Assembly: GCA_000004985.1 (NCBI GenBank)
Contig: GG739341.1
Origin: Naegleria gruberi
Taxonomy: Eukaryota
Strand: one strand, 5' to 3'
Length of the DNA: 1,709 nucleotides
Part shown: piece after piece, positions 1 through 1,709 of the stretch
How positions within the stretch are numbered: the first letter of the stretch is position 1
Layout: the number at the start of each line of letters is the position of its first letter
Made by a program: the position numbers and the translations under genes
Notes under the pieces: generated by a model
The model's database searches: none
What the model saw: the letters and a program-made list of their open reading frames with translations, nothing else
What the model was told of the DNA's origin: nothing

Positions 1-1
1 T

Positions 2-688
2 TGGCAACTCAATGTAGCTAGTAGTTTTTCAAGAGTTAAGAAAGGTCTTACTAAAGCCTATATTGTGGATCGTTCTAAACTCAAACGTAATGGTTTCTCC
101 TCTTATGATATTAAATCATATATTGATTCGATTTCATCACATGATGAATATACCTATAATTTAACCACTGCTGTACTGGTTATTGGTTTCAGACTTCTAG
201 CAAGACCTGGTGATCTTTGCGATCTCTCTTGGTCTTCTGTGAAACCAAATGATCCAAAGAAAAATTGGTTTACATTTGATCTATCAGGCCACAAAACTGA
301 TTTTTTCATGATTGACGATCCAACCCCAATCGAACCTTACTGTGGTGAAAAGAAATACTGTCCATCCTTTATACTTAATAGATATATGAAGATGGTCTCT
401 CACTTCAAGTCTCCTGACTCACCATTATTCTCATGGGCAGACGATTTGTACCTAGATACAATTGACCTTTCTAATATTATTAAGACTGCTATGTCTTCTA
501 TTGGTGTCTTTCATACTTCTGGCCACAGTGCAAGAATTGGTGCAGCTACTAAACTCACTTCTAAAGGAATTTCAGAAGTTATTATTAAAACAGCAGGTTA
601 TTGGATGCCAGGTTCCAGATCTAGAAAGCATTATCAAAGTAGAATAGGTCTTGCTTATCAAGGTTTAACTACTACTATGCTTAAATAA
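2..688 (+). CDS. Tyrosine (site-specific) recombinase, C-terminal catalytic domain; 5'-partial (continues upstream of window); Crypton/DIRS-like flavour
   Basis: Frame 2 has no stop from pos 2 to TAA at 686-688. The listed start at 65 is a GTG with open frame upstream (..WQLNVASSFSRVKKGLTKAYIVDRSK..), so the gene begins outside the window. Box I Arg: LVIGFRLLARPGDLCDLSWSSV. Beta-hairpin Lys: DLSGHKTDF. Box II HxxR: HTSGHSARIGAATKL. Trp in the His-III position (as in Cre): TAGYW. Tyr nucleophile about 10 residues after the Trp: SRSRKHYQ. Only ~40 aa precede the catalytic domain, so the N-terminal core-binding domain must lie upstream. Confidence 0.8.
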   Translation, partial: WQLNVASSFSRVKKGLTKAYIVDRSKLKRNGFSSYDIKSYIDSISSHDEYTYNLTTAVLVIGFRLLARPGDLCDLSWSSVKPNDPKKNWFTFDLSGHKTDFFMIDDPTPIEPYCGEKKYCPSFILNRYMKMVSHFKSPDSPLFSWADDLYLDTIDLSNIIKTAMSSIGVFHTSGHSARIGAATKLTSKGISEVIIKTAGYWMPGSRSRKHYQSRIGLAYQGLTTTMLK

Positions 689-785
689 TCTCGGGACCTT
701 ACCCATTAGTATAATTACTTGTTCTCAATCTTGTTTTTATTAATTTGCAATGTAACATGTCTAATTCTGAGCGAAAAAAGTAGCT

Positions 786-1046
786 ATGAAACAAGCCAAT
801 CCGTTTTTCTTTTTGTGGGAATCGATATCACATTTCTTAAGATTATCAGAAAATTTGACAAAAGGAGCCAAATACATAAGTGCAACATCACTTTGTGTAT
901 ATTACAATGAAATTGGTGATGAAGGAGCCAAACATATAAGTGAAATGAAACAGTTGATATCACTCGATATTGGTAACAATTTAATTAGTGATGAAGGAGT
1001 TAAATATATCAGTGAAATGAAACAATTGATATCACTAAGAAAATAA
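786..1046 (+). CDS. Leucine-rich repeat protein fragment (~2.5 x 24-aa repeats, GDEGAK/ISEMKQL type); probably truncated remnant/pseudogene or isolated exon
   Basis: Translation ..YYNEIGDEGAKHISEMKQLISLDIGNNLISDEGVKYISEMKQLISLRK* fits the LxxLxLxxNxIxxxGxxxIxxxxx LRR consensus with a 24-aa period. The upstream part (LSENLTKGAKYISATSLCVYY) is a degraded copy carrying a 4-aa in-frame deletion. An in-frame TGA at 768-770 sits 5 codons before the ATG, so the ORF cannot extend further. At 86 aa it is too short for a functional LRR solenoid. Confidence 0.5.
   Translation: MKQANPFFFLWESISHFLRLSENLTKGAKYISATSLCVYYNEIGDEGAKHISEMKQLISLDIGNNLISDEGVKYISEMKQLISLRK
849..1037 (+). repeat. Tandem 72-bp (24-codon) direct repeats, 3 copies with 5'-most copy degraded (coding LRR units)
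   Basis: Unit 918-989 (gatgaaggagccaaacatataagtgaaatgaaacagttgatatcactcgatattggtaacaatttaattagt) is followed by a near-identical copy at 990-1037 (gatgaaggagttaaatatatcagtgaaatgaaacaattgatatcacta). A degenerate copy at ~849-917 (aaaggagccaaatacataagtg..) has a 12-nt deletion. Confidence 0.75.
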
Positions 1047-1176
1047 GTTGTCCCATATCTTAAAATATTCTAAATTGAAATGCAACCATAAGAGTTGATA
1101 TTTCAGAAATTAAGGGCCACTAATTCACACAATTTTCACTTTGACTCTGTAATTTGTTATTTTTCTTTACAACATG

Positions 1177-1220: not shown

Positions 1221-1273
1221 AAAAAAAAAAAACACAACAAACAACACGACAGTAGCCACACCAACAAACAACA
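1221..1273 (+). repeat. Poly(A)12 tract followed by CA/CAA-rich low-complexity leader immediately 5' of the ATG at 1274
   Basis: a12 at 1221-1232, then acacaacaaacaacacgacagtagccacaccaacaaacaaca running to the ATG. A poly(dA:dT) tract followed by a purine/CA-rich leader is typical upstream of highly expressed eukaryotic (e.g. yeast ribosomal-protein) genes. It would also fit an SD-less A-rich leader as in Bacteroidetes. There is no Shine-Dalgarno motif. Confidence 0.6.
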
Positions 1274-1709
1274 ATGGCAATAATGTATGGAGGATTGGCA
1301 AGAAGTGGTAAAGTCAAATATCAAACACCACGTGTAGAAAAGACCAGCGATTCATCCTATCACGGAGGTTGCGCCAAATACAAAATCAAATCATCAAATA
1401 ATTTATCATATTCGGGAGGTGCTCATCGGTTGGAGAAGAATTTTACTGAAGAGTTGAAAGTCTATGATCAATACAAGGAAAATCATCAACGATGTGATTG
1501 GGTGGAGGAGAGAGCGAATATAAAGAGATCAGAACCTGTTCTTTTGAATTCCTTTCACAAGTTTAATACTGAGAAGGGTTTTAACAAGATGGAATGGAAT
1601 TCAATGAAAAAGGAGGAGAATATCTTGAAGAATAGATACAATTATAATCCAAATGCAAAGAATCATAAAAAGTGGCATAGAAATCATCCTAAAGATGGTT
1701 TATCAAAAG
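1274..1709 (+). CDS. Hypothetical K/N/E-rich protein, 3'-partial (runs off window end); N-terminal 24 aa resemble ribosomal protein eS30
   Basis: ATG at 1274-1276 follows an in-frame TAG at 1253-1255, and the frame is open for 145 codons to the window end. An open frame this long is unlikely by chance in AT-rich DNA. It is missing from the supplied ORF track apparently because it has no stop inside the window. The first 24 residues, MAIMYGGLARSGKVKYQTPRVEKT, match the eS30 N-terminus as I recall it from yeast ([24 protein letters not shown]) at ~17/24 positions. The remainder (SDSSYHGGCAKYKIKSSNN...KKEENILKNRYNYNPNAKNHKKWHRNHPKDG) is unrelated and much longer than eS30 (~60 aa). Confidence 0.55.
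   Translation, partial: MAIMYGGLARSGKVKYQTPRVEKTSDSSYHGGCAKYKIKSSNNLSYSGGAHRLEKNFTEELKVYDQYKENHQRCDWVEERANIKRSEPVLLNSFHKFNTEKGFNKMEWNSMKKEENILKNRYNYNPNAKNHKKWHRNHPKDGLSK

What the first reader, a model, noticed from the sequence alone, without database searches (positions are those of the whole stretch)
786..1046. Stub LRR gene: three tandem 72-bp repeat units decaying toward the 5' side
The 24-aa units (LISLDIGNNLISDEGVKYISEMKQ) are a clean GDEGAK-type LRR. Functional LRR domains need many more repeats than 2.5, so 86 aa cannot fold as a solenoid. The 5'-most unit has a 12-nt in-frame deletion plus substitutions, and a TGA lies 5 codons upstream of the ATG. The likely history is repeat contraction or truncation of a once larger LRR gene, possibly by the adjacent recombinase-bearing element. 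Alternatively this is one exon of a multi-exon LRR gene. Such repeat families are typically greatly expanded and recombinogenic.
Basis: seen in the sequence. Interest (0 to 1): 0.5.

Follow-up and report, generated by a model that had tools for sequence, protein, structure and literature searches.

The report
Orphan LRR gene fragment beside retrotransposon
The 86-codon reading frame is a real but orphaned piece (about three repeats) of a very common Naegleria gruberi leucine-rich-repeat gene family, stranded between the end of a DIRS-like retrotransposon and an ordinary host gene; it is most likely a dead gene fragment and is of little wider interest.

Summary
Window 822-1046 carries two intact 72-nt LRR units (882-953, 954-1025), a decayed 60-nt unit on the 5' side (822-881) and a 21-nt partial unit ending in TAA. 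The units pass Pfam LRR_6.

The window is a whole 1709-bp Naegleria gruberi contig. It has two annotated partial genes: a tyrosine recombinase (to 688) and a small host gene (from 1274). The LRR ORF between them is not annotated.

The recombinase is the last ORF of a DIRS1-like retrotransposon (gag, RT/RNase H/methyltransferase, YR). Its conserved 3' tail runs to about 759.

The closest relatives of the stub are N. gruberi "ISEMKQLTSL" LRR proteins (64-76% identity). Many of these carry an F-box-like N-terminal domain, which is absent from all six frames here. A possible further decayed unit lies past the stop codon (1062-1101, p about 0.01).

Best reading: a non-functional relic of a larger LRR gene, probably cut off by, or left next to, the retroelement. 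The causal link to the element is inferred, because no N. gruberi scaffold DNA could be retrieved. The multi-exon reading is unlikely: there is no room for more exons and no other LRR-coding frame. This is ordinary and of low interest.

The parts
2..688 (+). C-terminal 228 codons of the tyrosine recombinase (YR) ORF of a DIRS1-like retrotransposon. It is open from the contig start, with its stop at 686-688. Annotated as EFC35343.1, partial.
   Evidence: 100% match to the N. gruberi 'predicted protein, partial' on a 1709-bp contig. Full-length relatives of 302 aa are 72-82% identical. Weak Pfam Phage_integrase match here, 4.9e-06 in P0002. In L002 and L016 the YR follows gag and an RT/RNase H/Dam-methyltransferase ORF. 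Window 1-568 is 99.1% identical to L016 3150-3720.
689..759 (+). Conserved non-coding 3' tail of the retroelement. It includes the motif TCTCGGGACCTTACCCATT (689-707) and TTTGCAATGTAACATG (744-759).
   Evidence: Alignment A1. blastn shows window 689-759 is about 80% identical to L001 2707-2779, up to that contig's end. The motif is also present after the stop of L002 and of L004, whose YR is only 40% identical.
760..821 (+). Unassigned spacer. It contains the in-frame TGA (768-770) and the ATG (786-788) of the ORF, and has no significant LRR or element similarity.
   Evidence: Local alignment to the unit array gives p = 0.40. The unit HMM and the N-terminal-domain HMM find nothing here in any frame.
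786..1046 (+). 86-codon ORF (the finding). It is unannotated.
   Evidence: ORF list. The exact sequence is absent from a collection of about 15 billion proteins. The flanking annotated genes have consecutive accessions, EFC35343.1 and EFC35344.1.
822..881 (+). Decayed 5' LRR unit (SISHFLRLSENLTKGAKYIS). It is 60 nt long, lacks the EMKQ codons and carries a 2-aa loop gap.
   Evidence: In-register identity of 30/60 and 35/60, against a null of 17.1 +/- 3.4. 862-881 is significant on its own. Gapped BLASTP alignments to P0029 and P0019.
882..953 (+). Intact 72-nt LRR unit (ATSLCVYYNEIGDEGAKHISEMKQ).
   Evidence: Unit HMM 41.4 bits; the repeat finder D1.
954..1025 (+). Intact 72-nt LRR unit (LISLDIGNNLISDEGVKYISEMKQ).
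   Evidence: Unit HMM 50.1 bits; the repeat finder D1.
1026..1046 (+). Start of a fourth unit (LISL), followed by RK and the TAA stop.
   Evidence: Translation. Family members also end a few residues into a unit.
1062..1101 (+). Possible relic of the KYISEMKQLI-coding part of the next unit. It is broken by 4-nt and 6-nt insertions and by stop codons.
   Evidence: Gapped local alignment scores 15, against a shuffle null of 10.2 +/- 1.8, p = 0.014. The 12-nt copy at 1090-1101 is spaced 69 nt from 1021-1032 (D4). Suggestive only.
1274..1709 (+). Host gene running off the contig end (annotated EFC35344.1, partial). It encodes a small Naegleria-specific protein whose N-terminus resembles ribosomal protein eS30.
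   Evidence: 99% identical to N. gruberi P0157 on a 339-kb scaffold, with homologs in N. fowleri and N. lovaniensis. Pfam Ribosomal_S30 at 27.1 bits. L017 is near-identical.

Best explanation
The ORF 786-1046 is a non-functional relic of a member of the large N. gruberi 'ISEMKQLTSL' LRR family (24-residue RI-like / LRR_6 repeats, often with an F-box-like N-terminal domain).

What survives is a core of two intact units, flanked by a decayed unit on the 5' side and probably another decayed unit beyond the present stop codon. The whole N-terminal part of the ancestral gene is missing. In its place, on the same strand, lies the 3' end of a DIRS1-like tyrosine-recombinase retrotransposon.

The most likely history is that insertion of the retroelement, or a rearrangement at it, removed or displaced the 5' part of an LRR gene. 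That gene lay upstream of the NAEGRDRAFT_80950-like host gene. The remaining in-frame repeats then happen to give an ATG-to-TAA frame of 86 codons.

Shown:
- the repeat anatomy;
- family membership of the units;
- absence of the N-terminal domain;
- the identity of both neighbours;
- the lack of annotation.

Inferred:
- that the fragment is not expressed or functional;
- that the retroelement is the cause of the truncation.
For: - The units are bona fide family units: HMM 41-50 bits, Pfam LRR_6 above its cut-off, and 64-76% identity to N. gruberi P0029, P0061 and P0019.
- Those relatives have at least 4 units plus an N-terminal region of 80-130 aa or more. An HMM of the shared F-box-like N-terminal domain finds nothing in any of the six frames.
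- The ORF is not annotated, although both neighbours are, with consecutive accessions.
- The upstream neighbour is a retrotransposon. Its YR is 99% identical to the gag-RT/RH/MT-YR element in L016, and its conserved 3' tail reaches 759.
- Other copies of the same element are broken at different 3' points: L016 at window-equivalent 568, and P0162 earlier. This element family is therefore repeatedly associated with rearranged junctions.
- A frame-broken relic of the next unit lies 3' of the stop.
- No LRR gene lies within 10 kb of the N. fowleri ortholog of the downstream gene. The LRR sequence here is therefore a lineage-specific arrival, as expected for a fast-turnover family.
Against: - All indels inside the ORF are multiples of three and the frame is intact over 86 codons, which would also fit a short protein still under selection.
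- Family members naturally end a few residues into a unit, as this ORF does, so the 3' end could be a natural terminus.
- The downstream relic is only marginally significant (p = 0.014, uncorrected).
- A 62-nt gap (760-821) separates the conserved element sequence from significant LRR similarity.
- DIRS-like elements normally carry terminal repeats of 100 nt or more after the YR. None is detectable here, so the true element boundary is unknown.
- No transcript data, no allele and no N. gruberi scaffold DNA could be examined.
Confidence: 0.62

Rival explanations
1. The LRR fragment lies inside the retrotransposon. On this reading, 760 to about 1200 is the element's 3' terminal region (right terminal repeat or extension) and carries a captured piece of a host LRR gene, which would then be copied along with the element.
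For: - The YR ORF is intact, and DIRS1-like elements are expected to have ICRs and a terminal repeat downstream of the YR (PMC3266345). An intact copy should therefore extend beyond 759.
- All related contigs break 26-73 nt after the YR stop. This is what a short-read assembler does at the start of a repeat.
Against: - No direct or inverted repeat links 686-762 to 763-1273.
- Nothing in 689-1273 matches the 5' parts of L001, L002 or L016 on either strand.
- No short ORF resembling the stub's N-terminal 30 residues appears among the best 150 of 9749 hits.
- Other copies of this element are truncated at various points, so truncation at about 759 is plausible.
Confidence: 0.13
2. It is a genuine very small LRR protein gene: three short repeats, perhaps acting as a dimerising or decoy peptide, expressed from a promoter in or just after the retroelement tail. 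The annotation pipeline simply missed it.
For: - The frame is intact with only in-frame indels.
- Two units fit the consensus perfectly.
- Family members include short proteins, such as P0061 at 185 aa, and these end in mid-unit as this ORF does.
Against: - It has no N-terminal domain or cap.
- The 5' unit lacks 4 + 2 residues of a 24-residue repeat.
- It is not annotated, and no identical or near-identical short protein was found.
- The single-sequence AlphaFold model is low confidence and does not form a solenoid (pLDDT 57.6; weak evidence).
- There are only 26 nt between the conserved element tail and the ATG.
Confidence: 0.13
3. It is the last exon of a multi-exon LRR gene whose other exons lie elsewhere.
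For: N. gruberi has spliceosomal introns (general knowledge). AG dinucleotides occur at 779-783, just upstream of the ATG.
Against: - Upstream there are only 97 nt before the same-strand YR stop codon, so any intron would have to contain the retroelement (at least 4 kb in L016).
- No other frame of the window encodes LRR units or the family N-terminal domain.
- The downstream 227 nt run into another gene's start.
Confidence: 0.04
4. The juxtaposition is an assembly or cloning artefact: a chimeric orphan contig built from a few Sanger reads.
For: - It is a 1709-bp unplaced contig.
- Its last bases carry a 2-nt homopolymer difference from two near-identical copies of the downstream gene, typical of a low-quality read end.
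- A 99% identical copy of that gene is placed on a 339-kb scaffold.
Against: - The sequence is otherwise clean and both flanking ORFs are intact.
- N. gruberi is heterozygous (general knowledge), so an allelic insertion haplotype is an equally simple reason for an orphan contig.
- A chimera would not change what the LRR stub is.
Confidence: 0.06

Closest known systems
N. gruberi 'ISEMKQLTSL' LRR proteins, e.g. NAEGRDRAFT_64117 (EFC47816.1, P0029), NAEGRDRAFT_62798 (EFC49426.1, P0061) and NAEGRDRAFT_68813 (EFC43091.1, P0019, kinase + LRR)
   Same: The same 24-residue unit, L(T/I)SL(N/D)IxxNxIgxEGaKYISEMKQ. Identity is 64-76% over 51-73 residues, and these proteins share the habit of ending a few residues into a unit.
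   Different: The relatives have 4 to 7 or more units plus an N-terminal region: F-box-like in P0029, P0082, P0148 and others, kinase plus DUF4116 in P0019. The stub has two good units and one decayed unit, and no N-terminal domain.
RI-like / GALA-type 24-residue LRRs (Pfam LRR_6, PF13516; Ralstonia GALA proteins, PDB 9j7j and 4xa9; ribonuclease inhibitor 1dfj; NLRP LRR domains)
   Same: The repeat length and the 'NxIGDEGA' loop. LRR_6 is above its gathering score. The best PDB sequence matches are GALA proteins at E = 4.7e-13 and 2.4e-11.
   Different: The solved proteins have many units forming a horseshoe. The stub has about 2.5-3 units and no flanking domain. The relationship is at the level of repeat class only.
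DIRS1-like tyrosine-recombinase retrotransposons (the neighbour, not the stub); previously reported as low-copy and degenerate in N. gruberi (PMC3266345)
   Same: gag, then RT / RNase H / Dam-like methyltransferase, then YR as the last ORF in L002 and L016. The YR carries the R...HxxR...Y residues.
   Different: No inverted terminal repeat, internal complementary region or split direct repeat could be recognised in the window. PAT-like cannot be told apart from DIRS1-like without the termini.

Membership tests
Leucine-rich repeat, RI-like 24-residue class (Pfam LRR_6) | Score above the Pfam gathering threshold | tested here: met
   LRR_6 at 27.9 bits against a cut-off of 23.4, E = 1.9e-06
Leucine-rich repeat, RI-like 24-residue class (Pfam LRR_6) | Tandem units of constant period with the LxxLxLxxNxI core | tested here: met
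   Two 24-aa units in tandem (882-1025), each with LxxNxI(G/S)DEG(A/V)K, plus a 20-aa variant upstream
Leucine-rich repeat, RI-like 24-residue class (Pfam LRR_6) | Enough units (with caps or flanking domain) to form a stable solenoid | tested here: inconclusive
   Only about 2.5-3 units. The single-sequence AlphaFold2 model has pLDDT 57.6, is all-helical and is not interpretable. The smallest relative seen has 4 units plus an 80-aa N-terminal region.
N. gruberi F-box-like + ISEMKQLTSL-LRR gene family (as an intact member) | Repeat units of the family type | tested here: met
   The HMM built from family units scores 41.4 and 50.1 bits. Identity to members is 64-76%.
N. gruberi F-box-like + ISEMKQLTSL-LRR gene family (as an intact member) | N-terminal F-box-like domain of about 110 aa preceding the repeats | tested here: not met
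   An HMM from 7 family N-termini finds no match in any of the six frames, other than the shared LRR edge. The F-box assignment itself is weak: Pfam F-box at E = 0.0024 in P0148, below the cut-off.
N. gruberi F-box-like + ISEMKQLTSL-LRR gene family (as an intact member) | Presence as a predicted or expressed gene | tested here: not met
   The exact ORF is absent from the protein collection. The neighbouring genes are EFC35343.1 and EFC35344.1, with nothing annotated between them. Expression cannot be tested with these tools.
DIRS1-like YR retrotransposon (adjacent element) | RT/RNase H/methyltransferase pol plus a tyrosine recombinase ORF | tested here: met
   L002: RVT_1 at 1.9e-23, with weak RVT_3 and Dam matches, followed by the YR. 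L016 is the same element at 99% identity to the window.
DIRS1-like YR retrotransposon (adjacent element) | Inverted terminal repeats with internal complementary regions (split direct repeats in PAT/Ngaro) | tested here: not met
   There is no complementary or direct repeat between 686-762 and 763-1273. The 5' terminus is not in the window, so the test is partial.

The most novel reading that the evidence does not exclude
The stub may be a host LRR fragment carried in, or fused to, the 3' terminal region of a still-active DIRS-like retrotransposon (the YR ORF is intact). The element would then mobilise or express a mini-LRR peptide. That would be an example of exon capture or shuffling by a tyrosine-recombinase retroelement, feeding the expansion of the Naegleria LRR family.
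Probability: 0.08. Interest if true: 0.45.

Novelty: new member of a known kind. Interest (0 to 1): 0.12.

Why it matters
It matters little beyond annotation hygiene. It shows how the fast-evolving Naegleria LRR family leaves short in-frame fragments that look like genes, and it gives one concrete junction between such a fragment and a DIRS-like retrotransposon. If the junction proved to be an insertion polymorphism between haplotypes, it would be a small, datable example of gene disruption by a tyrosine-recombinase retroelement in a heterolobosean. Such elements have so far only been described there as low-copy and degenerate.

Tried and rejected
- The search for homologous proteins with the 86-aa ORF returned nothing. 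This was a word-index miss, because the exhaustive phmmer search found 9749 hits. Its silence is therefore not evidence.
- N. gruberi scaffold DNA could not be fetched for P0001, P0006, P0157 or P0158. No full-length paralog DNA, empty site or allele could be aligned.
- The metagenome scan with the YR alignment gave one distant locus, which ends right after the YR.
- A viral-contig scan with the conserved 3' motif gave six chance hits without a YR.
- I tested whether LRR similarity continues upstream of the ATG and through the TGA (GAGCGAAAAAAGTA-GCTATGAAACA against GAKHISEMKQ). The result was p = 0.40, so I rejected the idea as unsupported.
- I tested whether the 'SHFL' stretch is the family's pre-LRR 'SQFL' linker motif. 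The HMM gave no support.
- Synteny in N. fowleri shows an NPL4-like gene upstream of the ortholog and no LRR, so it cannot identify a parent gene.
- Rfam and tRNA scans of the window found nothing above chance.
- The bacterial promoter/terminator scan is irrelevant for a eukaryote.
- The AlphaFold single-sequence model was too poor for a fold search.
- The MAFFT alignment of the four units misplaced the decayed units and was not used.

Full report
**Where the window comes from.** The recombinase-like ORF at the left end is 100% identical to a Naegleria gruberi 'predicted protein, partial' whose only contig is 1709 bp long, so the window is a whole orphan contig of that assembly. Exact look-ups show two annotated partial genes on it. 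EFC35343.1 is the recombinase and EFC35344.1 is the ORF starting at 1274. Their accessions are consecutive, and the 86-aa ORF is not in the 15-billion-protein collection. The LRR ORF is therefore not an annotated gene.

**The observation.**
- The ORF 786-1046 exists.
- The repeat finder shows a 72-nt pair (887-958 / 959-1030, 78%) and a 24-nt family at 862, 922 and 994 with spacings of 60 and 72.
- In protein register there are two intact 24-residue units (882-953 and 954-1025), a 20-residue unit upstream (822-881) that lacks the EMKQ codons, and a 7-codon start of a fourth unit that ends in TAA.
- An HMM built from 19 distinct units of four N. gruberi paralogs scores the intact units at 41.4 and 50.1 bits. 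It finds nothing else in any of the six frames apart from a weak KGAKYIS hit at 861-881.
- The decayed unit is 30/60 and 35/60 identical in register to the intact ones, against 17.1 +/- 3.4 (maximum 28) for other 60-nt windows.
- BLASTP to paralogs places a 2-residue gap in its loop and the 4-residue EMKQ gap.
- Pfam LRR_6 is above its threshold, and the best solved-structure matches are GALA-type 24-residue LRR proteins.
- Tandem Repeats Finder reports nothing, which reflects how short and diverged the array is.

**The family.** An exhaustive phmmer search found 9749 proteins at E <= 0.001. The most similar are N. gruberi proteins: P0029 (263 aa), P0061 (185 aa), P0019 (820 aa, kinase + DUF4116 + LRR) and P0082. 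They are 64-76% identical over 51-73 residues. They carry 4 to 7 or more units of the same ISEMKQLTSL type. Seven relatives share an N-terminal domain of about 110 residues with weak F-box similarity. An HMM of that domain finds nothing in any frame of the window. Several members end a few residues into a unit, as the stub does.

**The upstream neighbour.**
- The recombinase ORF has full-length relatives of 302 aa at 72-82% identity.
- In L002 it follows, with a 4-nt overlap, a 668-aa ORF with RVT_1 (1.9e-23) and weak RNase H-like and Dam methyltransferase matches. That ORF is preceded by a 304-aa gag-like ORF.
- L016, from an environmental assembly that also holds a near-identical copy of the downstream gene (L017), is 99.1% identical to window 1-568 and has the same gag-pol-YR order.
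- This is a DIRS1-like (or PAT-like) tyrosine-recombinase retrotransposon. Such elements were reported as a few degenerate copies in N. gruberi (PMC3266345).
- After the stop codon, the non-coding sequence is conserved with the relatives up to window 759. This includes a motif, TCTCGGNACNNTACCCATT, that is kept even in a family with only 40% YR identity.
- All related contigs end 26-73 nt after the stop.
- I found no inverted or direct repeat linking 686-762 with 763-1273. Nothing in 689-1273 matches the other parts of L001, L002 or L016.
- Two other copies of the same element are broken at different 3' points: L016 at window-equivalent 568, and P0162 earlier.

**The downstream neighbour.** The ORF from 1274 is 99% identical to N. 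gruberi P0157 (169 aa, on a 339-kb scaffold) and has homologs in N. fowleri and N. lovaniensis. It is an ordinary host gene. In N. fowleri its upstream neighbour is an NPL4-like gene, and there is no LRR sequence within 10 kb.

**Flanks of the array.** Upstream of 822 there is no significant LRR similarity. The tempting alignment of AKKVAMKQ with GAKHISEMKQ has p = 0.40. Downstream of the stop, 1062-1101 aligns with the KHISEMKQLI-coding segment if 4-nt and 6-nt insertions are allowed (score 15 against 10.2 +/- 1.8, p = 0.014). It lies roughly in register, with a 69-nt spacing. This suggests that the array once continued past the present stop, but the evidence is weak.

**Interpretation.** The stub is best read as a relic of a larger LRR gene of this family. 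It has family-type units and no N-terminal domain. It is wedged into a 515-nt gap between a retroelement tail and a host gene, it is unannotated, and it probably has a frame-broken unit after its stop.

That the retroelement caused the truncation is plausible but inferred. There is a 62-nt unassigned spacer, the true element end is unknown, and I could not retrieve any N. gruberi scaffold DNA.

The in-frame nature of all indels inside the ORF means the 5' 'decay' may be the normal non-canonical first unit of a once-functional gene rather than post-truncation erosion.

Rivals and rough weights:
- The fragment is carried inside the element's terminal region: about 0.13.
- It is a genuine micro-LRR gene: about 0.13.
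- It is the terminal exon of a split gene: about 0.04. There is no room for other exons and no other LRR-coding frame.
- The contig is an assembly chimera: about 0.06.

**Verdict.** The repeat is real, correctly described, and essentially correctly interpreted as a stub. It is an ordinary by-product of a large, fast-turnover repeat-gene family next to a mobile element. Interest is low.

Noticed in passing
window 689-707 (also L001 2707-2725, L002 3722-3740, L004 1716-1734): The non-coding motif TCTCGG(N)AC(NN)TACCCATT sits immediately after the YR stop codon. It is conserved even in a DIRS-like family whose recombinase is only 40% identical. All related contigs break 26-73 nt after the stop. 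It is probably a cis element of the retrotransposon (start of a terminal repeat, an ICR, or a recombination site).
   Followed up: partly
window 1274-1709; P0157-P0161: A small Naegleria-specific protein family (109-208 aa). Its first 25 or so residues mimic ribosomal protein eS30 (GSLARSGKVKYQTPRV; Pfam Ribosomal_S30 at about the cut-off), and its C-terminal part has a conserved NHKKWHRNHP(K/Q)DGFYQ motif. N. gruberi has at least two paralogs.
   Followed up: partly
window 1694-1699: The T-run is 2 nt shorter than in two near-identical copies of the gene (P0157 and L017). This shifts the frame for the last four codons of the contig. It is most likely a low-quality read end, or possibly an allelic indel.
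   Followed up: yes
L016 3720/3721; P0162: Other copies of the same retroelement, 99% identical, are cut off inside the YR ORF at different points and continue into unrelated sequence. This family therefore occurs as variously 3'-truncated copies.
   Followed up: partly
window 1222-1233: A run of 12 A followed by a CA-rich tract (to 1273) lies directly upstream of the host gene's ATG. It is conserved in L017, where the A-run is 11 nt. It is probably the 5' UTR or promoter region.
   Followed up: no
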